This document shows, one piece after another, positions 1,998 to 26,931 of a DNA stretch of 42,357 bases. The stretch covers positions 1 to 42,357 of IMG/VR virus record IMGVR_UViG_3300037419_000652; one strand, given 5' to 3'. Numbering within the stretch: the first letter of the stretch is position 1; the number at the start of each line of letters is the position of its first letter. Below the pieces are notes generated by a model. That model was given only the letters and a program-made list of their open reading frames with translations, was not told the DNA's origin and did not search any database. The translations under genes were made by a program, and so were the position numbers. Origin of the DNA: a virus. Lineage: Duplodnaviria > Caudoviricetes.

Positions 1998-2404
1998 CGA
2001 CCCTCACCGAGACCACGCGCGTCTTCGACTGGCTGCGCGCCACGATCAATCCGCTGGCCAGCAATCGCGTCTACCGGGACATCGCGCCAGATCAGCCCAC
2101 GACGCCATACGTGATTGTCGGCCTGATGAGTGGACGTGACGTGGCGGGCGCTGCGGGTATCCGGCTGTGGCAGGACGGCCTGTATCTGGTGAAGGTGGTG
2201 GGCAAGCGTAGTGACTGGACGGCGATGGTGGCGCTGGCCGATGCGATAGACAGCGCGTTGCAGCTCGCTACCGGCAATACCGCCGACGCGACGATCATTC
2301 GTGCCGTGCGGGAAGAGTCGATTGCCTACAGCGAAGTGGTCGGCGCGGATGTGTGGTCGCATTTGGGCGCTATCTGGCGCGTGTACACGAAGAAGACGAG
2401 TTAG
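1994..2404 (+). CDS. Tail terminator (DUF3168-like)
   Basis: 'RVYRDIAPDQPTTPYVIV' motif; immediately upstream of the major tail gene; GTG start. Confidence 0.75.
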   Translation: MTTLTETTRVFDWLRATINPLASNRVYRDIAPDQPTTPYVIVGLMSGRDVAGAAGIRLWQDGLYLVKVVGKRSDWTAMVALADAIDSALQLATGNTADATIIRAVREESIAYSEVVGADVWSHLGAIWRVYTKKTS

Positions 2405-2413
2405 GAGACGAGC

Positions 2414-3703
2414 ATGCCAGGAGTAGTGGCGTACATAGATCAACATGTCCAGGTGGGACAGGAAGCGACACCGAATACTCCTGTCAGCGCCGCGAAGCGT
2501 CTGCAATCCCTGACGCTGGAGTTCACCGACGAGATCGACACCCAGCAGTTTAATCCGACTGGCTACCGCTTCGATACGCTGTCCATGCTCAACAAAGCCT
2601 GGACGGGGATCAAGGCGGGCGGGCCGCTGTCGTTCACCGAATCGCTGTACGTCATCGAGGCGGCGCTGGGAGCAGTGTCAGCCAGCACGCAGGGCGTCAA
2701 CGGTAAGCTGCGGACCTACGATGTGCCGCTGACTGGCGCGATCTCGCCCAAGACGCTCACCACGCAATTTGGTGACGCCACCTATGCGAATCAGGCGGCT
2801 GGCGCATTCTTTGCCAGCCTTGGCGCGAAGTATAGCCGCGAGACGAATGCGGTCTGGGATGGCGTGGACGGCTACGCGCAACGCATCCTCGACGGCGGCA
2901 CGACATTCTCAGGCTCGCCCACGACCGTGCCGGAGCAGCCAGTACGCGGCCCGCATCTCAACTTCTACCTGGACTCCACCAGCGCCAATCTTGGTGTCAC
3001 GCAGATCACCGAAGAAGTGCTGGAAGGCTCGTGGAACCTGAAGGATCTGCTCAAACTGTTCTGGGCGGCGGACAGAAGTCAGGCGAGCTACAAAAAGGCG
3101 CTCAGCAACGAGGCGGGCAAGTACGGCGCGAAGCTGAGTCTGGGTGAGTCCGCGGTCGTGCGGGCGATTGACGCCGCAATGATGCTCAACCGCACGTACT
3201 TCCTGCGCATCGAGAACAAGGGCGACATGCTCGACAACCAGAACGTGCTGACGATCACCGGCACACCAACAGGTGGCACCTTCACCCTGACCTATAAGGG
3301 GCAGACAACCGGCGCGATTGCCTACAACGCCGCGGCTGGCGCGGTGCAGACGGCGTTGGAGGCGCTGACCAAGATCGGCGTGGGCAACGTCACGGTGACC
3401 GGCGGCCCTGGTCCTGGCACGCCCTGGACGGTCTCATTCCTGTCTGGCCTGCTGCAAAACGACACGAGCGTTCTGACCCATGCGGACAGCTTCACCGGCG
3501 GTTCTAGCCCAGCGCTGGGCATCGTACAGACGCTGACGCCGTACGAGCACACCGTTGATTGCGCGATCAAGCTCATGAAGAAAGCCTCGTGGGGCAACCA
3601 TGATAGCGTGTACGCCCGTGACATGGACTTCACGCTGATTGGCGATCCAACGTGGGGTCATGCGCTGATGATCAAGAGTGTGACGGGGCTGGCGAGCCTA
3701 TGA
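2414..3703 (+). CDS. Major tail (tube) protein with an inserted beta-rich accessory domain
   Basis: Synteny; 'VQVGQEATPNTPV' N-terminus; RBS AGGAG; internal 'ITGTPTGGTFTLTY...AVQTALEAL' domain. Confidence 0.75.
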   Translation: MPGVVAYIDQHVQVGQEATPNTPVSAAKRLQSLTLEFTDEIDTQQFNPTGYRFDTLSMLNKAWTGIKAGGPLSFTESLYVIEAALGAVSASTQGVNGKLRTYDVPLTGAISPKTLTTQFGDATYANQAAGAFFASLGAKYSRETNAVWDGVDGYAQRILDGGTTFSGSPTTVPEQPVRGPHLNFYLDSTSANLGVTQITEEVLEGSWNLKDLLKLFWAADRSQASYKKALSNEAGKYGAKLSLGESAVVRAIDAAMMLNRTYFLRIENKGDMLDNQNVLTITGTPTGGTFTLTYKGQTTGAIAYNAAAGAVQTALEALTKIGVGNVTVTGGPGPGTPWTVSFLSGLLQNDTSVLTHADSFTGGSSPALGIVQTLTPYEHTVDCAIKLMKKASWGNHDSVYARDMDFTLIGDPTWGHALMIKSVTGLASL

Positions 3704-3708
3704 GCCAG

Positions 3709-4050
3709 TTAGCTAGCACGCTCATACACCACGGTGAACTTGGCCTTGGGCTTGATGACCGCGGCCAGGAGGCCAAGCGCCACAATACGGCCGGCGCCAG
3801 CACGTGGCTGATAGGCGGATTGCGAGACGACCTTCCAGCCCTGCTGGCCCATGCGTGTGATGCCCTCGCGCATATCCTTATCGCCTTCGTAGGTGCGCGT
3901 CTTCTGTCCGGTCTGCGCTTCGGCCTCGGCCTCTGGCGAACCACTGCGCGGCGCGTAGCAGTTCGGGCATGCCTGCTTGTTGGCGCTGATGTTCTTCTTG
4001 CCACACTCGGCGCACTCCCACGGCTTGATGCGATCCATAAATCCAGCCAT
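3709..4050 (-). CDS. Antisense moron: zinc-ribbon protein with a C-terminal hydrophobic segment
   Basis: WECAECG...CPNC; RBS AAAGGGTGG before ATG 4050; own promoter upstream. Confidence 0.75.
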   Translation of the reverse strand: MAGFMDRIKPWECAECGKKNISANKQACPNCYAPRSGSPEAEAEAQTGQKTRTYEGDKDMREGITRMGQQGWKVVSQSAYQPRAGAGRIVALGLLAAVIKPKAKFTVVYERAS

Positions 4051-4098
4051 TGTTTTCCACCCTTTCGTTGCGGCCATTTTATGCCGCTTGTTCACCAC

Positions 4099-4124
4099 GA
4101 CGCAAGACGGGCGTGGATAGTCAC
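4099..4124 (-). promoter_or_regulatory. Putative ECF-sigma promoter GTGAC-N17-CGTC
   Basis: Same motif and spacing at 5364-5389 (-) and 14094-14119 (+). Confidence 0.6.
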
Positions 4125-4143
4125 GCGGTAGTTCGGAGGATTC

Positions 4144-4629
4144 ATGACTGACATGGCAGAAGCGGTGCGGAGAGCGCGAGCCGATGCACGTGAGCGCGAA
4201 GAGGAAGCGGCGCCAGTCGCGCGCATGCGCGTTACCACGCTTGCTGATCTACGCTCCGGCAGCGTGCCTGCCACCATGATCGTGCGTGGCATGCCGATCA
4301 ACATCGAGTATGACCCGGACGGCGTGACGCTGGAATCGCTGCAACGCGCCTCAGCGCTCCAGGATGGTGACGGCAAGGCGGATGACCTGGCGGTGATGAC
4401 CGACTTCCTCATCAACACCATCCTGCGGTGGGATCTGCGCGAAGAGGACGGCGAAACGATCGTGGACCTGTCCGCTGAGCGGCTAGCGAAGTTCGGCATT
4501 GGCTTGCTGGCGGATATGAGCACGGCGCTCATCAAGGCGACGCGCATGGGGGAAGCGAGCGGGACGCCATCACGACAGCGCTTATCGCGTACGCGCACAA
4601 AGGGAACACGAAGTTCCTTGCGGCGATAG
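4144..4629 (+). CDS. Tail assembly chaperone (G-like)
   Basis: Between tail tube and tape measure genes; 'ILRWDL' motif; RBS GGAGG; slippery site G GGG GAA at 4548-4554. Confidence 0.75.
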   Translation: MTDMAEAVRRARADAREREEEAAPVARMRVTTLADLRSGSVPATMIVRGMPINIEYDPDGVTLESLQRASALQDGDGKADDLAVMTDFLINTILRWDLREEDGETIVDLSAERLAKFGIGLLADMSTALIKATRMGEASGTPSRQRLSRTRTKGTRSSLRR

Positions 4630-5413: not shown

Positions 5414-7123
5414 GTGGCGACCACGATAGCCGAGTTGCAGGCCGTTGTCACGGCGGACACCACTCAGGGCGACAAGAGCCTGAAGGGCTTCCACAAGAAT
5501 CTCGACGACACCAAAGATCATTCAGACAAGGCCAGTGGCGGTGTGCTGGGCTTCACCAAGAACATTGCAGGCATTGCAGCGGGCGTCGGCGTGGCGAATC
5601 TGGTTTCTGCTGGCTTTGGCATGATTCGCGACACCGCAAGCGACATGATTCAGTCGGCGATGGATGCCAACAAGGGCATCGCACAGACCAATGCGGTCCT
5701 GGCGTCCACGCATGGCGTATCGGGCCAGACGGCGCAGAGCATCGCCGCATTGGCTGACCAATTCCAAGACCTCGAAGGCGTAGACGATGATGTGACACGC
5801 TCAGCTGCCAATATGCTGCTGACCTTCACGAACATCAAGGGCGATGTCTTCCCTGGCGCCACGCAGACAGCACTGGATATGGCGGCAGCGCTTGGAGGCA
5901 GCGCGAAAGATAGCGCCATGATGCTGGGCAAAGCGCTGAATGAACCCGCAAAGGCTGCTGGTATCTTGGGGCGCGCTGGCGTACAGCTCACTGACGATGA
6001 GCAAAAAGCCATAGACACGGCGCTGAAGCATAACGACGTGGCAAAGGCACAGAGCATCATCCTCGGCGAACTGAAAACACAGTTCGGTGGTCAGGCAAAG
6101 GCTGTCGGCGACGCGGCAGGCCCGATGGGCAAGCTCAACTTGATCTGGCAGGACGTGGGCAAGAGCATCGGCAACATGCTCATTCCGGCACTGCAACAGG
6201 CTGCGACCGTCGCAATAGGCGTGATCAACTTCTTCCAGACTGGCGGGCCACCAGCCAAGGCGCTGGCAATCATCATCGGCGGCATTCTGGTCACAGCGGT
6301 TGCAGCCTACGCAGTCAGTATGGCCAGCGCCGCCATTGCGACCATCGCCGCCACCTGGCCGATATTGCTCATCATTGCGGCGGTGGGCCTCCTGGTCGCG
6401 GGCATCATCCTGCTCGTCCAGCACTGGTCGCAGGTGACGGCGTTCCTGCAAGGTGTGTGGGCTGCTGCGGTGCGTGGTGTGCAGGTTGGGCTACAGCTCT
6501 TGGGCCAGTTCTTCAGCAATCTGGGAACAACCATCCACAATGCGCTGATGGGCGCCGCGCAGGCCATTCTCTCGTGGACACTCGGCGTTATCGCGCGCTT
6601 CCAAGAGGCGAAGGCGCAGGCTGACGCGAAGATCGCCGAGATGGTCGCCGCCGTGATCAACCGGATACGTGGCGCAGTCGGTGGCGTGATTTCAGCGGCA
6701 GGCGCGATCAAGGACGGGTTTCTAAATGCGCTCGCCGCTCTTCCGGGGAAGCTTGCGGATTTAGCAACCAATGCGATCAACCACATGATCTCGGCAATTC
6801 TCGGCATGGCGGGCAAGGTTGGCAACGCCATCTCTGGCCTGTTCAGCCACTTCCACCTGCCAGGGTTCGCAGAGGGTGGTATTGCACCGGGTGGGTTGGC
6901 CATGGTGGGCGAGCATGGGCCGGAAGTGGTAGCTCTACCAGCGGGGGCGCGTGTGTATCCCAGTGGGACCGGGCCGAGTCTGGGCGGCGGTGTTGCGGCG
7001 AGTGCGTCCGGTGGAACCATCAGCATCACCATTCCGGTCTATCTGGCTGGCCGCAAAGTGGCCGAGGTCTTGCTGCCTGACATGGTGAACGAGATCCGGC
7101 GCGCCACAGGGGGCAAGGCATGA
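5414..7123 (+). CDS. Tape measure protein
   Basis: Ala/Gly-rich helical protein with TM segments and C-terminal 'FAEGG...MVGEHGPE' motif. Confidence 0.9.
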   Translation: MATTIAELQAVVTADTTQGDKSLKGFHKNLDDTKDHSDKASGGVLGFTKNIAGIAAGVGVANLVSAGFGMIRDTASDMIQSAMDANKGIAQTNAVLASTHGVSGQTAQSIAALADQFQDLEGVDDDVTRSAANMLLTFTNIKGDVFPGATQTALDMAAALGGSAKDSAMMLGKALNEPAKAAGILGRAGVQLTDDEQKAIDTALKHNDVAKAQSIILGELKTQFGGQAKAVGDAAGPMGKLNLIWQDVGKSIGNMLIPALQQAATVAIGVINFFQTGGPPAKALAIIIGGILVTAVAAYAVSMASAAIATIAATWPILLIIAAVGLLVAGIILLVQHWSQVTAFLQGVWAAAVRGVQVGLQLLGQFFSNLGTTIHNALMGAAQAILSWTLGVIARFQEAKAQADAKIAEMVAAVINRIRGAVGGVISAAGAIKDGFLNALAALPGKLADLATNAINHMISAILGMAGKVGNAISGLFSHFHLPGFAEGGIAPGGLAMVGEHGPEVVALPAGARVYPSGTGPSLGGGVAASASGGTISITIPVYLAGRKVAEVLLPDMVNEIRRATGGKA

Positions 7124-10100
7124 CGCAACTACCACTCGGCGCGGTCTACGTCCCGCCTGTCACAAACGCTCCGCCGTACTATCTCAGCGCCTCGCCAGAC
7201 GGCAATCAGAAGCTCCTCGACGCCTGGACCGGCACACCGACGACACTCTATGGCTGCACGTTCTACCTGAGCACGCAGGGTGGCTCCGGCGCGTGGCATA
7301 GCGGCGATCTGGGCGCGACCATCGATAGCCTGCTCAACCTCGCGCAGCAAGACAGTCTCAATATGGTGCGCGTCACCGATTTTTTCAACGGTTCCGACGC
7401 GACACAGGTGTGGGATGATCCGCAAGTCTGGACAAACATTGATTACTTGGTGAGCGCCTGCCAACTGCGCGGCATGTATGTCCTGATGGATGTGGCATCA
7501 TGGGGCGCGTATATGACGAGCCAGGGCGGCACTGGCGGCAATGACCCAACGGTAGCGGCGAACTGGACCGCGAAGCTCCAGGCGTTGGGCGCGCACTACA
7601 TCAATGCGAAGAACATCTGCTGGTACTCCATTCGTGGCGAGCCGAGCGTGCCAACGGATGCCACGACCACAACCGCGCTGGTGAACTTCTATGACAGCGT
7701 GACGACGACACTCTACACTGCCGATCCCAACCACCTGATCACCGCTGGCGGCCTGCTCAACATGCAGCAGAACCCGTCGTTGTCGTGGTGGCAACAGATA
7801 TTTAGTCTCGCGCACAACAACGTGTGCAGCTACAAGGTCTACAGCCAGGACGATCTCGACTACATCAACTTCATCGGGCGCTACGTGTCTGCGCTGGGCA
7901 AGCCGCTCAGCAATCAAGAGTTTGGCGGCGAGCAGGTGCTGGGCGATAGCGTGTACAGTGGCACGCCCTACAACAATATCGCGCTGTCTCGCGCTGACTA
8001 CTTCCGCCAGGTCTATCGCCGTGGCTGGCAGGTGACGACCAGCTCGTTCATCTTCTGGAATCTCGGCTTCCAGGTCAATCCCACCGGCTTTGATGTCTCG
8101 CCTGATATTAGCCCGGCGGCATGGATGGTGATCGGTGAGGCGGCGTCGGGCCAGTCACCCGCCAGCATCACTATTGGCAGCGCGACGCTCGATGACACGC
8201 TCTATGTCAGTGGTGACTCACTCAGTATCGATCTGGCGATCAACCAGCGCAGCAAAGCCGATTTTACGCTGCTGGACACGTTGGGCGCGCAGCACTTCGA
8301 CCAGGGCGAGCCGCTCATCATCGTGGACGATTTCAACCAGCGGCTCTTCGGCGGCGTGATCACCGATGCGGTGGAGACGCAGCCCGCGCCGACAGATGAA
8401 GAGAATGGCGCGCTGCTACGACACGTGCTCAACTATGCCGACTGGCACTATCTCGCCGACAAACGCGCGTTCCCCTATAGCAACGCGAATGTGAGCTTGC
8501 AACAGGTCATCAGGGACATGATGAGCCAGGTGTTGCTCGCCGAGGGTGTGGTGGCAGCGTTTGGTGACAACTACCTCTCGCCGAATCAGTCGCTCGGTGC
8601 GGATGAGGACCTGCAGGGCTTCGTCGCGATCAACAATGCGGTGATTTCTCAGGATGCGCCGATGCCGGGCGCTCTTCATGGCTCGCTCAAAGTCGTGTGC
8701 AGCGGCGCCCAGGCGTTCCAAGCCGTAGAGGTCCGCATTCCAGTCGGGGTCATCCCTGGCATCAACGGCGCGCAGATCACCATTAGCGCGTATGCGAGGG
8801 CGAGTAGTGGAACGCCCACCCTGCGCATGTTCGTTCAGGGCGCGTCCGCTGCGCTTGGCAGCACCACGACGAAGACGCTCAGCACCACTCGCACGCGCTA
8901 CACCTGGACGGCCACCATGCCCAACCCGGTAACGGGCGGCTTCCTGGCCATTCGCTTTGACACAGGCACCCCAGCGCAAGCTGTGACGTTCTGGCTCGAT
9001 AGCCTACAAATCGAGAAGGCGGGTAGCGCGTCGGCGTGGCAACTTGGCGGCGAGGCAACGGTCCAGACAGGGCCAACCATTCAGGAGATCACGAGCAACT
9101 ACAGTAGCTGCGCGGAAAACCTGGACAGTCTCTCACAGGCGGCGGATTTCACCTGGCAGATTGACGCCTACAAGGTGCTGTGGTGTGGCGCGCCGGGTCA
9201 ACTGGTCGCGCCGTGGTCTGCGGCGATGATCGATATGGAACGTGGCAGCATCGAGGTGGAACGCGCCAACCAGCAGTACCGCAACCGCCAGTATCTGCTT
9301 GGCGCCCATGCGCAGACGAGCACGCAGATTGAGACGCGCATCGGCGACGGCACCAACCAATCATTCACCATGAGCTACGAGCTGGCGACCACGCCCACGG
9401 TGGAAGTGAAGATCGGCGCAGGGTCGTTCGTGGCCAAGACGGTAGGCATCGGCGGAGTCGATAGCGCGCGGGATTGGTATTGGAACGCAGGAAAGAACAT
9501 CGTCTTCCAGGATACCGCCGGAACCAAGCTCACGAGTAGCGACACGTTGCGCGTCACCTACGTTGGCCAGTTCCCTGTCGTGGTCCTGAGCACGAATGAC
9601 ACGGAGATCGCCGCGCAGCTTGCGCGCGAGGCGGGCGTGGGCACTGGCTACGTGGATGCAGTCGCCAGCGACAGCACGCTCAAGACGATTGCGGGCGCGT
9701 ACCAGGCGGCGGGCGGCTATCTGAGTCGCTACGGCCAGTTGGGCAAAAAGGCGAAGTTTCGCACGTTGCGCGGCGGTCTCATGCCCGGCCAACTGCTCTC
9801 GGTGGATCTGCCAGCCCATGACATCAACAACGCACAGATGCTGGTGGAGTCCGTACGACTGGCTTACACCGGCTTTTACTTCTACTACGACATCACGGCG
9901 GTGGAAGGGCCGGTCAATCAGACGTGGCCGCAGTATTTCGAAGCGCTCGCTACGAAGTCAGGGCAGACGGTGGACAAGATCAACCTGGGCAGTGGCTCGA
10001 ATCTGGCGCTGCTGCAATCCTTCACCGCCAGCAAATCGCCCTCGGCGAGCTTCACGGCCACGGTGAACGCCTGTATGTTCCCGTCCGCCACTGCCTACCC

Positions 10101-10125
10101 TTCCACGTCTACCTATCCCTGCTGA
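7120..10125 (+). CDS. Tail tip/hub protein with an N-terminal GH5-like glycoside hydrolase and an internal CBM-like domain
   Basis: Follows the tape measure gene; clan GH-A-like motifs 'LNMVRV', 'YSIRGEP', 'DPNHLIT', 'NQEFG', 'FIFWN'; 'VTFWLDSLQIEK' CBM4_9-like; hub-type C-terminus. Confidence 0.75.
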   Translation: MTQLPLGAVYVPPVTNAPPYYLSASPDGNQKLLDAWTGTPTTLYGCTFYLSTQGGSGAWHSGDLGATIDSLLNLAQQDSLNMVRVTDFFNGSDATQVWDDPQVWTNIDYLVSACQLRGMYVLMDVASWGAYMTSQGGTGGNDPTVAANWTAKLQALGAHYINAKNICWYSIRGEPSVPTDATTTTALVNFYDSVTTTLYTADPNHLITAGGLLNMQQNPSLSWWQQIFSLAHNNVCSYKVYSQDDLDYINFIGRYVSALGKPLSNQEFGGEQVLGDSVYSGTPYNNIALSRADYFRQVYRRGWQVTTSSFIFWNLGFQVNPTGFDVSPDISPAAWMVIGEAASGQSPASITIGSATLDDTLYVSGDSLSIDLAINQRSKADFTLLDTLGAQHFDQGEPLIIVDDFNQRLFGGVITDAVETQPAPTDEENGALLRHVLNYADWHYLADKRAFPYSNANVSLQQVIRDMMSQVLLAEGVVAAFGDNYLSPNQSLGADEDLQGFVAINNAVISQDAPMPGALHGSLKVVCSGAQAFQAVEVRIPVGVIPGINGAQITISAYARASSGTPTLRMFVQGASAALGSTTTKTLSTTRTRYTWTATMPNPVTGGFLAIRFDTGTPAQAVTFWLDSLQIEKAGSASAWQLGGEATVQTGPTIQEITSNYSSCAENLDSLSQAADFTWQIDAYKVLWCGAPGQLVAPWSAAMIDMERGSIEVERANQQYRNRQYLLGAHAQTSTQIETRIGDGTNQSFTMSYELATTPTVEVKIGAGSFVAKTVGIGGVDSARDWYWNAGKNIVFQDTAGTKLTSSDTLRVTYVGQFPVVVLSTNDTEIAAQLAREAGVGTGYVDAVASDSTLKTIAGAYQAAGGYLSRYGQLGKKAKFRTLRGGLMPGQLLSVDLPAHDINNAQMLVESVRLAYTGFYFYYDITAVEGPVNQTWPQYFEALATKSGQTVDKINLGSGSNLALLQSFTASKSPSASFTATVNACMFPSATAYPSTSTYPC

Positions 10126-12236: not shown

Positions 12237-13226
12237 ATGCTTCTTCCCAACGGTCTTTTACCCGGCATTATCTGGGTGGAGAGCGAGTTTGATGGCCAGT
12301 TTGCCACGTGCGGCCCGAACAGTCTGGGCATGGCTGAATCCTATGGCACACAGGTCTACATCGGCGCGCCAGTGGCAGGCAAGACCGCCACGACAGTCAT
12401 CTACAACCGCATGCGCGCCGGAACGTGGATTGATAACGGTGTGCGCAAAGCCCGCGCAGATCCCGGTGGCGCATCGAAGATGGGTGGGCTGGAATCGCAG
12501 GCGCAGGCGGATGGATTCAAGACCGTGCGCTCAGGCGGTTCAGGATGGAAGGCGTTCGCTATCGCGCAGTTGAAGGCCGGCGCGCCAGTCATCATCGAGC
12601 CGTCGCATGGTCAGGTGCTGAAAGATCTGATTACCGGCCAGGGCATGGACGCGACGAACCTCCAGTATCACTACAACCTGATTGTCGGCTACTGGCCCGG
12701 CGGCGTCGTGAATGGTCGCAACCTGCCGGAAGGATTCTGGGTCGCGGATGGCGACAATGGCGCGACCAACCCGATTGTGAATGGCGTTCGCACGCGCGTT
12801 CGCGGTGGCCACAATCTTCAGTTCTACAGCGCCGCCAACTATGCGGCGTCTGCTCCTGTCGCGCTGATGGCGGTCTATCCCAAGGTGCAGATCGGGCTGG
12901 TGCATCCGGCGGGCTTCCCGGGTGGCTGGACGGATGACGGAACCACGCTGAAAGCACCCGGCGGCATGCCGGTGGTCAAAGGCTTCCGCGTCTACCTGCT
13001 GGCGCATCCTGAGTTGGTGAGCGGCCCGCATCTGAGCGACAACTACCCGATTGAGCCTGAGCGCGCGGTGTCTCAGGTGGAAGCGTGGAACACGGCGCAT
13101 GGCGCTGGATCTGTGCAGACGTTCCACCGCATGCGGCTGGCCTGGACGCAAAAAGACGGCGTGTACGTGATGTGGCTTGGCGATGAGGCGCGCTATCTGG
13201 AGCGCGAGAAAGTAGGTGCAGCATAG
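12237..13226 (+). CDS. Endolysin: C39-like cysteine peptidase plus a putative cell-wall-binding repeat
   Basis: 'TCGP', 'YHYNLIVGY', 'FWVAD' Cys-His-Asp pattern; C-terminal 'YPIEPE...VQTFHRMRLAW'; RBS GGAGG. Confidence 0.7.
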   Translation: MLLPNGLLPGIIWVESEFDGQFATCGPNSLGMAESYGTQVYIGAPVAGKTATTVIYNRMRAGTWIDNGVRKARADPGGASKMGGLESQAQADGFKTVRSGGSGWKAFAIAQLKAGAPVIIEPSHGQVLKDLITGQGMDATNLQYHYNLIVGYWPGGVVNGRNLPEGFWVADGDNGATNPIVNGVRTRVRGGHNLQFYSAANYAASAPVALMAVYPKVQIGLVHPAGFPGGWTDDGTTLKAPGGMPVVKGFRVYLLAHPELVSGPHLSDNYPIEPERAVSQVEAWNTAHGAGSVQTFHRMRLAWTQKDGVYVMWLGDEARYLEREKVGAA

Positions 13227-13357: not shown

Positions 13358-13618
13358 ATGGCAGTCCGAGCGAAGTTCTACGTGAGCGAAGTCAAGGTCT
13401 CAAAAAACAACTACGGCGGCCAGAACGGCGAGTTGTTGACGACCATCAAACTTGCGCCGGTGAGTGGCAACAGCGAAGAGAACAAGCAGTTCTACCGCTG
13501 GTCGCCGAGCGGGTCAATTGATCTTGGCACCGTCAATCCTGCCGTTGTGGAACAGTTTCACATCGGCGATGAGTTCTACATCGACTTCACCCCCGCCAAT
13601 CCTGAGCAACACGAGTAG
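13358..13618 (+). CDS. Phage hypothetical protein
   Basis: RBS AGGAGG; 'VRAKF...EENKQF...PSGSI...GDEFYIDF' recalled as a widespread phage family. Confidence 0.75.
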   Translation: MAVRAKFYVSEVKVSKNNYGGQNGELLTTIKLAPVSGNSEENKQFYRWSPSGSIDLGTVNPAVVEQFHIGDEFYIDFTPANPEQHE

Positions 13619-13664: not shown

Positions 13665-14054
13665 ATGAATCTGTTTGCAGCGGCGCGAGCTGGCATGCCG
13701 CTCACGCCAGGTCAGCGCACGGTCCTGCGCGCAATCGAAAGCGTGTTACTGGCGGCGCTCGTCTCGTTCATGATTGTCTTGCCGCAACTCACCAACGGGT
13801 TTGATCTGGCGCACACCAACTGGGGCGCAATGGCGGGCGCGTTCGGTGTGGCATTCCTGATGGCGTTGGCGAAGTGGTTCAAAGCCCACGGTGACACGCC
13901 GCTGGCTGATGCGTCCGAGAATGCGGCTGGCGCGCTACGTGAGTTCGCCGACGTGCCCAATGATGTGGTGATCGAGCCGGAACTACCTGCGATGTCCGCT
14001 GATGCGTCTGAGGAGGCCGTGGCGGCACCTGTAGCGACAGAAGCGAGCAACTAG
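13665..14054 (+). CDS. Putative holin
   Basis: Two TM segments and an acidic C-tail; last gene of the lysis cassette; RBS AAAGGTGG. Confidence 0.65.
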   Translation: MNLFAAARAGMPLTPGQRTVLRAIESVLLAALVSFMIVLPQLTNGFDLAHTNWGAMAGAFGVAFLMALAKWFKAHGDTPLADASENAAGALREFADVPNDVVIEPELPAMSADASEEAVAAPVATEASN

Positions 14055-14093: not shown

Positions 14094-14119
14094 GTGACTG
14101 CTAAAGCCGTCGAAACGTC
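14094..14119 (+). promoter_or_regulatory. Putative ECF-sigma promoter GTGAC-N17-CGTC
   Basis: Third copy of the motif, intergenic, followed by hairpin TTGGATG...CATCCAA. Confidence 0.5.
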
Positions 14120-14159
14120 TGAATAGTTGGATGCTTCGTACACATCCAATTCTCCGCCC

Positions 14160-14195
14160 AAAGCCGCGCTAACTCCCCAGTGGCGTGGCTTTGTG
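14160..14195 (+). terminator. Intrinsic terminator-like hairpin
   Basis: AAAGCCGCGC...GCGTGGCTTT followed by GTG; weak U-tract. Confidence 0.5.
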
Positions 14196-14202
14196 GTATA
14201 CT
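14192..14202 (+). promoter_or_regulatory. Extended -10 promoter TGTGGTATACT
   Basis: Matches TRTGnTATAAT at all but one position. Confidence 0.55.
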
Positions 14203-14234
14203 GAGAGCCTGATGAAGCGCTGGATTATCCAGCC

Positions 14235-14278
14235 AAACGCCCACCAACTTCCGTCTCTGACTGGTGGGCGTTTCTTTG
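14235..14278 (+). terminator. Intrinsic terminator
   Basis: 12-bp perfect stem AAACGCCCACCA/TGGTGGGCGTTT then CTTTG. Confidence 0.7.
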
Positions 14279-14288
14279 TGTTATACTC
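14277..14288 (+). promoter_or_regulatory. Extended -10 promoter TGTGTTATACTC driving the tRNA-like RNAs
   Basis: About 10 nt upstream of the first tRNA-like 5' end; identical 12-mer at 29663-29674. Confidence 0.65.
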
Positions 14289-14297
14289 TAGCTTGCT

Positions 14298-14393
14298 AGG
14301 GATGTCGCGTAACGGTGCGGTTGCTGGGACGCCAGCGACTAAGCGCGAGCGGTCGCGCCGCTTGACTGGGTTCAACTCCCAGCGTCCCTGCCA
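14298..14393 (+). ncRNA. tRNA-like RNA 1 (long variable arm, G73, CCA, no canonical anticodon loop)
   Basis: Acceptor AGGGATG/CGTCCCT, discriminator G, CCA; T-arm CTGGG-TTCAACT-CCCAG; 8-bp stem with a 4-nt loop where the anticodon arm should be. Confidence 0.75.
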
Positions 14394-14394
14394 G

Positions 14395-14511
14395 ACCCTG
14401 GTAGCTCAGAGGTAGAGCGCTCGCGGGCGATGAAGCGGCGAAAGCTGTAAAACCAGCAATGCCGTGGAGCAGTGCGAGAGGTCGCTGGTTCAAATCCAGC
14501 CTAGGGTTCCG
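14395..14511 (+). ncRNA. tRNA-like RNA 2 with a 49-nt structured region replacing the anticodon loop
   Basis: Acceptor ACCCTGG/CTAGGGT; D-arm TA-GCTC-AGAGGTA-GAGC; anticodon stem CTCGC/GCGAG; T-arm GCTGG-TTCAAAT-CCAGC. Confidence 0.8.
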
Positions 14512-14521
14512 ATAGACAATA

Positions 14522-14594
14522 GGGGGATGGCCGTATGGATACAATCATGCGGTGCACAGTCTTTAGAGCGTAGCTCTTCGCCGTAAGCGCCCCC
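14522..14594 (+). ncRNA. Unclassified structured RNA downstream of the tRNA-like pair
   Basis: GGGGG/CCCCC closing stem, ATGG/CCGT stem, hairpins CCGTATG/CATGCGG and AGAGC/GCTCT; same CCGATAGA trailer as RNA 2. Confidence 0.45.
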
Positions 14595-14605
14595 GATAGA
14601 AATTA

Positions 14606-14643
14606 GAATGCCCCAGGATTAACACCCCTGGGGCATTCGCTTT
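14606..14643. terminator. Probable bidirectional terminator
   Basis: 12-bp perfect stem GAATGCCCCAGG/CCTGGGGCATTC between convergent units. Confidence 0.7.
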
Positions 14644-25757: not shown

Positions 25758-26096
25758 ATGGCCACCAAGACGCTCGCCATCGAGCAGCTCGCGCAGGAGA
25801 TTCAGCTCTGCCAGTTGCCATCCCCCGTCGCGGAGCATCGCTTCGCCAAGGATATCAAACGCCGCTGGCGCTTCGATCTGGCGTGGCCTGCGGCGATGCT
25901 GGCCGTGGAGGTGGACGGCGGCACCTGGAGCGGCGGCCGTCACGTCACCGGCAGAGGCTTCGAGGGTGACTGCGAGAAGCTGAACACGGCGACCCTCATG
26001 GGCTGGCGTGTCCTGCGCTTCACGACGGACATGGTGCGGCGTGGCGAGGCCATCGGCGCGATCCTCGCTGCGTTCGATAATCAGCAGGCGGCGTAG
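25758..26096 (+). CDS. PD-(D/E)xK endonuclease (DUF559/Vsr-like)
   Basis: 'EHRF...RWRFDLAWP...AVEVDGG...H...GWRVLRF'. Confidence 0.8.
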   Translation: MATKTLAIEQLAQEIQLCQLPSPVAEHRFAKDIKRRWRFDLAWPAAMLAVEVDGGTWSGGRHVTGRGFEGDCEKLNTATLMGWRVLRFTTDMVRRGEAIGAILAAFDNQQAA

Positions 26097-26100
26097 CCCT

Positions 26101-26931
26101 ATGCGAGATGCGACACCTGACGCGCTAACACAGTTCATCCGCGAACTAAACACCTACCCTGTGCTCTCTCCTGAACAGCATCTCGCGCTGATCGAGAAAG
26201 CGCAGGCAGGCGATCAAGACGCCATGAACACGATGGTTACGCACAACATGCGGCTGGTCATCGCGATAGCGACTCGCAGCGCCGGGCAGGGCGTGCCACT
26301 CATGGATCTGATCCAGGAGGGTTCCTTTGGCGTGAGGCGCGCAGTTGAGAAGTTTGACGCGACCAAAGGCTTTCAGTTCAGCACCTACGCGACGCCATGG
26401 ATACAGCAAGCGGTTGGACGCACTATCGAGGACATGAGTCGGACGATTCGCATTCCATCCTACAAACACCAGCAAGTGCGCAAGATCAAACGCGACCTTG
26501 CGCACGATGACGTGGCCCGTGCGATTGCGTTGGCTGAGGCGCAAGCGGAATGGGAAGTGGTCTCGCTCGATAGAGAACTACACCCAGATGATCCCTATGA
26601 CGAAACCACACTGGCTGATCTGATCCCATCATCCAATTTACGCATGAATGTGGAGCATATTGCGAATCAGCAACTGCTGCTCTCGCTCTTTGCGCGCGCA
26701 AAGCTCACCAAGCGTGAACGAGCGGTCATCATCTACCACTACGGGTTGGACGGCAAGGGAGCGCGCACACTTGAAGCGACTGGCGCGCTCATCATCACCG
26801 CTATCGGCAAAAAGCGCATGGGTATTACCCGCGAGCGTGTGCGCCAGATCGAGGCGAACGCCCTGCGCAAGCTACGTCTGGCAGCCACCCACAGTCGAGA
26901 CCGTGACGCGCTGCTGGCGCTGGTCGCGTAG
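26101..26931 (+). CDS. RNA polymerase sigma-70 family factor (RpoD-like regions 1.2, 2, 4)
   Basis: 'HNMRLVIAIA', 'DLIQEG', 'AVEKFD..KGFQFSTYATPWI', 'RTIRIP', 'ITRERVRQIE..ALRKLR'. Confidence 0.92.
   Translation: MRDATPDALTQFIRELNTYPVLSPEQHLALIEKAQAGDQDAMNTMVTHNMRLVIAIATRSAGQGVPLMDLIQEGSFGVRRAVEKFDATKGFQFSTYATPWIQQAVGRTIEDMSRTIRIPSYKHQQVRKIKRDLAHDDVARAIALAEAQAEWEVVSLDRELHPDDPYDETTLADLIPSSNLRMNVEHIANQQLLLSLFARAKLTKRERAVIIYHYGLDGKGARTLEATGALIITAIGKKRMGITRERVRQIEANALRKLRLAATHSRDRDALLALVA

What the first reader, a model, noticed from the sequence alone, without database searches (positions are those of the whole stretch)
14094..14643. Non-coding RNA island: anticodon-less tRNA mimics plus small RNAs after the lysis cassette
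Seen: about 550 bp with no credible ORF holds an ECF-type promoter, two extended -10 promoters, three terminator-like hairpins, two back-to-back tRNA-shaped RNAs separated by one base, and a third structured RNA. Neither tRNA shape has a 7-nt anticodon loop, yet acceptor stems and T-arms are intact, which fits selection on shape better than decay. Inference: a phage operon of tRNA mimics that could act as decoys or inhibitors (for anticodon nucleases, synthetases, EF-Tu, RelA or T-boxes) or as protein scaffolds. The promoter 12-mer is shared with the terminase promoter, suggesting late co-expression. This is the best candidate for an undescribed system in the window.
Basis: partly seen in the sequence, partly recalled or inferred. 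Interest (0 to 1): 0.9.

Follow-up and report, generated by a model that had tools for sequence, protein, structure and literature searches.

The report
Phage tRNA mimics without anticodons
A soil phage carries, behind its holin-like gene, two tRNA-shaped genes whose amino-acid-accepting half is intact but whose codon-reading loop is gone or replaced by a predicted kinked hairpin, and they are likely made into small RNAs that would act as decoys for host toxins that attack tRNA ends.

Summary
Both tRNA shapes are real: a complete acceptor stem plus T-arm occurs twice in the island, nowhere else in the phage, and once in 1 of 20,000 shuffles. RNA1 (14298-14393, G73, encoded CCA) has one homologue, in another phage with the same promoter. 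22 of 22 stem pairs hold, the body is 85% identical (holin gene 69%), and an internal hairpin varies freely. That hairpin reads best as a D-loop insert, leaving a 3-nt loop where the anticodon belongs. RNA2 (14395-14511) matches a Ktedonobacterales tRNA-Val(CAC) at 36 of 36 stem and variable-loop positions, has a rewritten but fully paired acceptor, and carries a 49-nt predicted k-turn insert instead of the anticodon loop; no homologue was found. The closest phage lacks the island and another carries a different small RNA there, so this is exchangeable cargo. The 'third RNA', the ECF promoter and late co-expression are not supported. No expression data. Best reading: non-decoding tRNA mimics kept for shape (about 0.7), most likely decoys for acceptor-end tRNA toxins (0.35). 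A new variant of irregular tRNA polycistrons, not a Y RNA or allo-tRNA.

The parts
12237..13226 (+). putative endolysin (context); invariant Cys25, His145, Asp171 suggest a papain/C39-like peptidase (fold recalled, no Pfam hit)
   Evidence: relatives in 3 genomes of the Ktedonobacterales set
13665..14054 (+). holin-like membrane protein, left border of the island (context)
   Evidence: Atlas lead Phage_r1t_holin at 0.88, a lead only
14094..14125 (+). ECF-like promoter motif, unverified
   Evidence: sequence; loose motif found elsewhere too
14125..14196 (+). small unit A: hairpin plus terminator-like hairpin
   Evidence: z -4.8; no homologue, no Rfam match
14194..14202 (+). extended -10 promoter motif 1
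14209..14278 (+). small unit B: hairpin plus intrinsic-terminator-like hairpin with T tail
   Evidence: z -4.2; hairpin resembles the lone terminator of L081
14279..14287 (+). extended -10 promoter motif 2, 10 nt before RNA1; same motif and spacing in L083
14298..14393 (+). RNA1: tRNA-Ser-related body, A1-U72, G73, encoded CCA; variable hairpin 14319-14340 best read as a D-loop insert; hairpin 14348-14362 with 3-nt loop in the anticodon position
14395..14511 (+). RNA2: tRNA-Val(CAC)-like body, rewritten acceptor stem, U73, CCG instead of CCA
14425..14473 (+). 49-nt insert replacing RNA2's anticodon loop; predicted standard k-turn at its base (strands 14427-14436 and 14464-14470)
14522..14595 (+). 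tRNA-sized segment ('third RNA'), possibly a relic; flanked by a 14-nt imperfect direct repeat
   Evidence: not above chance; repeat D3
14606..14638 (.). 12-bp terminator hairpin closing the island; strong T tail on the minus strand, weak on plus
   Evidence: counterpart in L081

Best explanation
RNA1 and RNA2 are tRNA-derived phage genes with intact acceptor stem, T-arm and D-loop GG but no anticodon loop; they are likely transcribed from the adjacent extended -10 promoter by host polymerase, would be trimmed by the host's tRNA-processing enzymes into stable small RNAs that cannot decode, and likely act as decoys that soak up host toxins attacking the tRNA acceptor end. Shown: the anatomy, kinship to Ktedonobacterales tRNA-Ser and tRNA-Val, stem conservation of RNA1 in a second phage, and that the slot after the holin holds exchangeable cargo. 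Inferred: transcription; RNase P and 3' maturation (7-bp acceptor, short leader, trailer, terminator); CCA repair of the CCG copies; the target class. The loss of the anticodon would keep a highly expressed RNA from miscoding and from being cut by anticodon nucleases, while leaving the surface that acceptor-end enzymes (AbiEii/MenT-type nucleotidyltransferases, toxSAS pyrophosphokinases) read. I put 'functional non-decoding RNA kept for its shape' at about 0.7 and this particular decoy mechanism at 0.35.
For: RNA1 vs L083: 22 of 22 pairs kept, one double change, one single change; body 58 of 68 identical vs holin gene 221 of 321; flanks 14 of 35 and 16 of 40, so likeness ends at the RNA's borders; internal hairpin only 11 of 26 identical (p 6e-5) yet a hairpin in both; changes 3 of 44 paired vs 7 of 24 unpaired (p 0.027). 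In L083 RNA1 sits alone between the same promoter and a terminator, so the RNA itself is the likely product. RNA2: 36 of 36 identity to a Ktedonobacterales tRNA-Val(CAC) outside acceptor and loops, next best 30 of 36 among 87 tRNAs; 10 of 14 acceptor bases differ with all pairs kept, 8e-4 under random change. Slot is variable: empty in G001, a different structured RNA with its own extended -10 in L082. toxSAS toxins read only the acceptor stem and CCA and accept minihelices (PMC11559606, passages). AbiEii-family genes are in 17 of 51 genomes of the likely host order, which shows that candidate targets exist, not a link.
Against: Two copies of RNA1 and one of RNA2: no covariation statistics (262 of 500 shuffles reach the score). 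No homologue in IMG/VR by 4 exact patterns, none among the 32 hits of a looser one, none in 151 of 169 order genomes by models, 401 phylum genomes by pattern or 50 virus records. Two of three copies end in CCG, not CCA. All have A1-U72, while host tRNA-Ser and -Val start G1-C72, so the acceptor is not a copy of a host substrate; RNA2 has 1 of the 4 FaRel2 determinants. The decoy idea does not explain why RNA2 carries a k-turn. The third segment looks decayed. The D region of RNA1 is poorly determined in the folding ensemble (pair probabilities under 0.45). No toxin or partner gene is linked to the island.
Confidence: 0.35

Rival explanations
1. Natural tRNA scaffold: the tRNA body only gets the RNA matured and protected, and the inserted hairpins (RNA2's k-turn arm, RNA1's D-loop hairpin) are the working parts, binding a host or phage protein.
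For: A standard k-turn sits exactly at the base of RNA2's insert: 0.4% of 20,000 shuffles, 0.015% for the Kt-7-like form with C-G at -1 and A.G at 3b,3n; 6.3% anywhere in the insert. 3n = G predicts folding in Mg2+ without protein (PMC5061560, passages). The insert holds a GNCGAAN0-1G match (14437-14444), the YrlA motif thought to bind Ro60 (PMC4201824).
Against: RNA1's insert is the least conserved part (11 of 26), the opposite of a cargo. L7Ae-family k-turn binders were found in 0 of 61 order genomes; TROVE/Ro60 in 0 of 1 (own phage) and 7 of 169. RNA2 is a single copy.
Confidence: 0.2
2. Irregular, allo-tRNA-like miscoding tRNA now partly decayed: RNA1 is a class II tRNA-Ser body whose first hairpin is the anticodon arm; the L083 copy (7-nt loop, U33, CGC triplet, G73) would put serine at an alanine codon, and the window's copy has lost a base.
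For: Closest host tRNAs are serine isoacceptors, above 200 of 200 shuffles; weak tRNA-Sec hits; G73; allo-tRNAs with serine identity and foreign anticodons, and soil polycistrons of irregular tRNAs, are described (PMC5389517).
Against: The supposed anticodon arm is the most divergent part and pairs in different registers in the two copies; L083 has C37, A32 and only 2 D-stem pairs in this reading; this fold is 1.1 and 5.1 kcal/mol worse than the D-loop-insert fold; it says nothing about RNA2.
Confidence: 0.2
3. Neutral relics: captured tRNA genes and integration scars drifting in a non-essential slot.
For: Absent from the closest phage; third segment looks decayed; hardly any homologues; the tRNA-Val(CAC) that RNA2 resembles has a partial 3' repeat 2.3 kb downstream in G094, as at an integration site.
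Against: No broken pair in acceptor, T- or conserved stems of any of three copies; acceptor rewriting with full pairing (8e-4); RNA1 more conserved than the neighbouring protein gene, with promoter spacing kept; the island is over 4 kb from the integrase and the acceptor 3' strand does not match the host tRNA, so it is not attP.
Confidence: 0.15
4. Inhibitors of general tRNA-handling proteins (a synthetase, EF-Tu, RNase P or CCA-adding enzyme) that slow host translation in the lysogen.
For: The conserved half is the 12-bp branch that EF-Tu and processing enzymes share (PMC5389517 introduction); some inactive allo-tRNA variants killed E. coli.
Against: Serine charging needs the long V-arm, absent in the favoured fold; valine charging needs A73 and the anticodon (recalled), both absent; EF-Tu binds only charged tRNA (recalled); a constitutive inhibitor would also cost the phage.
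Confidence: 0.1

Closest known systems
Polycistrons of irregular tRNAs (tRNA0/1/2) and allo-tRNAs, Mukai et al. 2017, PMC5389517
   Same: Soil-derived, tandem irregular tRNAs, serine-type bodies with G73, some charged but not used in translation; two listed rows have 38- and 64-nt D-loops like RNA1's insert.
   Different: Those rows keep a 7-nt anticodon loop; no sequence match to RNA1's 5' motif or RNA2's k-turn strand in the supplement; branch here reads 7/5; attributed to Acidobacteria and toxin-antitoxin loci, not to a Chloroflexota phage; no anticodon-loop k-turn insert seen in the parts read.
Bacterial Y RNAs (YrlA, Yrn1), Chen et al. 2014, PMC4201824
   Same: Non-decoding tRNA mimics that keep D, T and acceptor features, can be RNase P and CCA-enzyme substrates, occur in phages; RNA2 has a GNCGAAN0-1G match.
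   Different: Y RNAs lie within 4 kb of a Ro60 gene and YrlA is permuted (acceptor as an internal stem-loop); here no TROVE gene, normal 5'/3' acceptor ends, no Rfam YrlA hit.
Phage tRNAs that counter tRNA-targeting defences (e.g. against Septu, PMC13096335 listing; toxSAS, PMC11559606)
   Same: Accessory phage tRNA genes in a conflict over host tRNA.
   Different: Those are working tRNAs that replace the lost pool; these cannot decode, so they could only titrate.
mascRNA/menRNA, tmRNA tRNA-like domain, and engineered tRNA scaffolds (recalled)
   Same: tRNA top half without an anticodon; RNA2 has the layout of a laboratory scaffold with cargo in the anticodon arm.
   Different: Only a sub-threshold mascRNA hit (18.2 bits vs 42.5); no tmRNA tag or G3.U70; natural and phage-borne.

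Membership tests
canonical tRNA | 7-bp acceptor and 5-bp T-stem with T-loop consensus | tested here: met
canonical tRNA | 7-nt anticodon loop (U33, purine 37) on a 5-bp stem | tested here: not met
   RNA2 49 nt; RNA1 3-4 nt in either reading; ARAGORN default 0 genes
canonical tRNA | 3' CCA encoded or addable | tested here: inconclusive
   CCA in RNA1; CCG in RNA2 and L083; repair not testable
intron-containing tRNA | bulge-helix-bulge or group I intron whose removal restores a U33 loop | tested here: not met
   No such fold or Rfam intron hit; joining any 5' and 3' ends of the insert to 7 nt puts G or A at 33 (read from sequence); ARAGORN's intron call leaves a mismatched stem
allo-tRNA (Mukai 2017) | 8/4 or 9/3 acceptor branch | tested here: inconclusive
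   RNA2 is 7/5; RNA1 folds 7/5 (pair probabilities 0.8-1.0), L083 splits between 6/6, 7/5 and 8/4
allo-tRNA (Mukai 2017) | Sec-like long D-stem with tetraloop | tested here: not met
   4 bp possible in RNA1, 2 bp in L083
allo-tRNA (Mukai 2017) | long V-arm with G73/U73 | tested here: inconclusive
   G73 present; the hairpin is a V-arm only in the less favoured fold
irregular tRNA polycistrons (tRNA0/1/2) | tandem irregular tRNAs in one unit | tested here: met
   RNA1 and RNA2 one base apart between promoter motif and terminator
irregular tRNA polycistrons (tRNA0/1/2) | sequence kinship and toxin-antitoxin neighbours | tested here: not met
   0 hits for RNA1 5' and RNA2 insert motifs in the supplement; no family hit for flanking ORFs
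Y RNA (YrlA) | Ro60/TROVE gene within about 4 kb | tested here: not met
   (record may be incomplete)
Y RNA (YrlA) | permuted order T - acceptor loop - D | tested here: not met
   normal cloverleaf order
Y RNA (YrlA) | GNCGAAN0-1G motif near the 5' end | tested here: inconclusive
   match at 14437-14444, internal; about 2% by chance in 49 nt (my estimate, no call)
tmRNA | G3.U70 alanine identity, tag reading frame, pseudoknots | tested here: not met
   pairs at 3:70 are G-C and C-G
standard k-turn (RNA2 insert) | 3-nt bulge followed by G.A and A.G pairs between two helices | tested here: met
   sequence and fold against the definition in PMC5061560
standard k-turn (RNA2 insert) | kinked 3D fold or L7Ae-family binding | not testable with these tools
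   L7Ae family 0 of 61 order genomes

The most novel reading that the evidence does not exclude
Temperate phages of Ktedonobacterales build anticodon-less tRNA decoys from host tRNAs, swapping acceptor stems and deleting or capping the anticodon arm, and use them as an RNA-only anti-defence against toxins that modify or cut tRNA acceptor ends; RNA2 is also a natural tRNA scaffold with a self-folding k-turn arm.
Probability: 0.3. Interest if true: 0.85.

Novelty: new variant of a known kind. Interest (0 to 1): 0.6.

Why it matters
Known phage answers to tRNA-targeting defences supply working replacement tRNAs or proteins. A tRNA that cannot decode but keeps its acceptor half would be a different, RNA-only counter-measure, and it gives a simple test: does a 96-nt RNA rescue cells from an acceptor-end toxin? 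RNA2 would be a natural case of cargo carried in the anticodon arm, with a k-turn in a lineage where no L7Ae-family binder was found. Standard tRNA finders miss both RNAs, so such genes may be overlooked in soil phages generally. If the relic reading is right, the interest falls to a curiosity of tRNA decay.

Tried and rejected
Homologue searches that gave nothing: IMG/VR exact patterns for RNA2 and RNA1, 0 hits each; a looser tRNA-with-insert pattern gave 32 loci, of which 31 were ordinary tRNAs or chance and L109 a tRNA body with a 56-nt insert that reads as a degenerate Ile arm plus a second T-arm, without the k-turn's closing stem; blastn of phages and plasmids (82, 83) hit only ordinary tRNA arms or nothing; model R2 on 151 order genomes hit only tRNA-Ser (14 matches in 13 genomes, at most 42 bits vs 118 self; 97, 99); model R3 on 151 genomes hit only 73-77-nt tRNAs (42 genomes; 24 candidates scored per genome; 100); blastn on 169 genomes; patterns on 401 phylum genomes, 1 hit each, neither tRNA-like (104 equal to its control; 129); insert pattern on 169 genomes, 47 with hits, none that I read as an insert-bearing tRNA body from the matched strings (121; loci not folded); R2 on 50 virus records, 48 of them under 90% complete. 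Model R1 and the pair count used a structure string I had misregistered; discarded and replaced by R2. Searches were wrong frames. Sequencing runs: no RNA holder listed; at 80% likeness only the likely source contig covers the two RNAs; neither is evidence on expression. Antisense or repeat matches of island parts to the rest of the phage were no longer than in shuffles. Hammerhead, theta/HDV ribozyme, TPP and SAM riboswitch likenesses seen by eye had no Rfam support. attP reading rejected (distance to integrase, acceptor mismatch). Relaxed ARAGORN is uninformative here: 55 calls in the window, 108 in G001. Earlier scan findings: none returned. Literature searches listed no paper on anticodon-less phage tRNA decoys or a k-turn in a tRNA anticodon arm; I saw listings only for most, and subscription journals and bioRxiv supplements are not covered. 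The supplement tables of PMC10690425 (10,006 candidate viral RNAs) were not opened and may hold these RNAs.

Full report
Setting. The window is a 42-kb virus record with tail, integrase, RecT, sigma-70, primase, terminase, portal and capsid genes. It is classed linear with a completeness estimate of 60, but relatives are 40-42 kb and one, G001, is colinear over its whole length at about 70-90% nucleotide identity. The host is likely Ktedonobacterales: the putative endolysin has relatives in 3 genomes, one titled Ktedonobacterales and all three in that order's set, and RNA2 matches a tRNA of that order (below). The endolysin and holin labels are leads: an invariant Cys/His/Asp set without Pfam hit and an Atlas holin hit at 0.88.

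The observation. Between the holin-like gene (ends 14054) and a leftward gene (ends 14642) there is no credible ORF. Two extended -10 motifs each follow a terminator-like hairpin in an 85-nt repeat unit. Two tRNA top halves lie one base apart; that motif is absent from the rest of the phage and appears once in 1 of 20,000 shuffles, never twice. The third RNA is tRNA-sized but not above chance in folding or likeness to host tRNAs (69 of 200 shuffles). The ECF motif is loose and untested. The 12-mer shared with the terminase promoter is real but generic: G001 has a different extended -10 at the same place, so it does not argue for late co-expression.

RNA2. Rfam scores it as a tRNA (51.6 bits) with 49 nt where the 7-nt loop belongs. 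Among 87 tRNAs from fetched loci, a Ktedonobacterales tRNA-Val(CAC) is identical at 36 of 36 positions of the 8-9 linker, D-stem, position 26, anticodon stem, variable loop and T-stem; the next best has 30. This exact Val type is rare: 1 exact and 3 near matches in 169 genomes. The acceptor shares 4 of 14 bases with it yet keeps 7 of 7 pairs, which 10 random changes do with probability 8e-4; a one-step swap from another tRNA would also explain it. It ends U73-CCG. The insert folds as an extension of the anticodon stem with a standard k-turn at its base: 0.4% of shuffles place one there, 0.015% in the Kt-7-like form, 6.3% anywhere. By the rules in PMC5061560 (passages) it should fold in Mg2+ alone; L7Ae-family proteins were found in 0 of 61 order genomes. 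It is not a recognisable intron. No homologue was found.

RNA1. Scanning JGI metagenomes with the holin alignment gave 4 loci. L083 carries an RNA1 homologue 70-170 nt after the holin, on the opposite strand, with the same promoter motif at the same 10-nt spacing, and a terminator soon after; it stands alone. L082 has a different structured RNA with its own extended -10 in that slot, G001 has only a terminator that resembles the window's second and third hairpins; L084 and L085 are short, distant and gave no Rfam hit. Pairing positions 10-13 with the strand after the first hairpin solves both: the hairpin becomes an insert between D-loop positions 20 and 21, and the second hairpin, with a 3-nt loop that differs between the copies, takes the anticodon position. 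This fold keeps 22 of 22 pairs in both copies and is favoured by 1.1 and 5.1 kcal/mol, though both folds are above the minimum-energy structures and the D region is uncertain. The body is 58 of 68 identical against 221 of 321 for the holin gene, flanks fall to 14 of 35 and 16 of 40, the insert is 11 of 26, and changes avoid stems (3 of 44 vs 7 of 24, p 0.027). With two sequences covariation cannot be significant (262 of 500 shuffles). The nearest host tRNAs are serine isoacceptors. In the class II reading L083 has a 7-nt loop with U33 but C37, which keeps the miscoding rival alive.

How it likely works. What is conserved is what acceptor-end and elbow-reading proteins see; what is lost is what ribosomes, RelA, T-boxes and anticodon nucleases need (recalled). 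An exchangeable slot with host-type promoters is where temperate phages carry conflict cargo (recalled). toxSAS toxins select tRNA by acceptor pairs and CCA and accept minihelices (PMC11559606, passages); MenT/AbiEii toxins extend acceptor ends (search listing and abstract starts only), and AbiEii-family genes occur in 17 of 51 order genomes. I therefore favour a decoy for acceptor-end toxins (0.35), ahead of a scaffold for the inserts (0.2), a decaying miscoding tRNA (0.2), neutral relics (0.15) and inhibition of general tRNA factors (0.1). Against the decoy: A1-U72 in all copies, CCG in two of three, 1 of 4 FaRel2 determinants in RNA2, no linked toxin, and no account of the k-turn. Transcription, processing and targets are all inferred; no RNA run is listed.

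Comparison. It works like other non-decoding tRNA mimics but is not a Y RNA (no TROVE gene, normal order; PMC4201824 passages), tmRNA or allo-tRNA by the tests made. The nearest description is the irregular tRNA polycistrons of PMC5389517 (main text parts 1-3 of 5, supplement parts 1 and 23 of 26 and two text searches), which include 38- and 64-nt D-loops but keep 7-nt anticodon loops in those rows and share no tested motif. PMC10690425 (passages) lists tRNA-like viral candidates without describing this; its tables were not opened. Of PMC7609411 I saw the outline and abstract. Nine literature searches listed nothing closer.

Verdict. Real, odd and probably selected, but thinly sampled: one homologue for RNA1, none for RNA2, no expression. 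New variant of a known kind; interest 0.6, and 0.85 if the decoy role is shown.

Noticed in passing
L082:1155-1304 (minus strand): A different ~150-nt structured RNA plus terminator, with its own extended -10, fills the post-holin slot of a related phage (z -4.9, no Rfam match).
   Followed up: partly
L109:1481-1599 and 1100-2400: A 111-kb phage has a tRNA body with a 56-nt insert (degenerate Ile arm plus second T-arm) inside a long non-coding stretch with other tRNA-like pieces that ARAGORN misses.
   Followed up: partly
window 26008-26931: Phage-encoded full-length sigma-70-family factor, about 37% identical to RpoD proteins; its promoters are unknown.
   Followed up: no
window 12237-13226: Unannotated family (409 representatives at E 0.001) with invariant Cys, His, Asp and a C-terminal module shared more widely; likely a Ktedonobacterales phage endolysin.
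   Followed up: partly
window 7120-10125: 1001-aa tail-region protein with a glycoside hydrolase family 5 domain, possibly a depolymerase.
   Followed up: no
L122 and L123, about 2300-4600: rRNA operons of two Ktedonobacterales-set genomes read 16S, two tRNAs, then two 5S genes, with no 23S in the locus; an endolysin-like gene lies about 1.4 kb further on.
   Followed up: no
G094:C244:126-200 and 2490-2516 (L138, L149): tRNA-Val(CAC) with a partial 3' repeat 2.3 kb downstream, as at an integration site.
   Followed up: no
window 14509-14522 and 14593-14606: Imperfect 14-nt direct repeat flanks the third segment; the same CCGATA start follows the RNA1 homologue in L083, so CCG in place of CCA recurs.
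   Followed up: partly
window 13358-13618: 86-aa gene between endolysin and holin, absent from G001 and from a rhizosphere contig that joins across it: a second small accessory insertion.
   Followed up: no
L174-L183: TROVE-domain genes in 7 of 169 Ktedonobacterales-set genomes; neighbouring Y RNAs not looked for.
   Followed up: no
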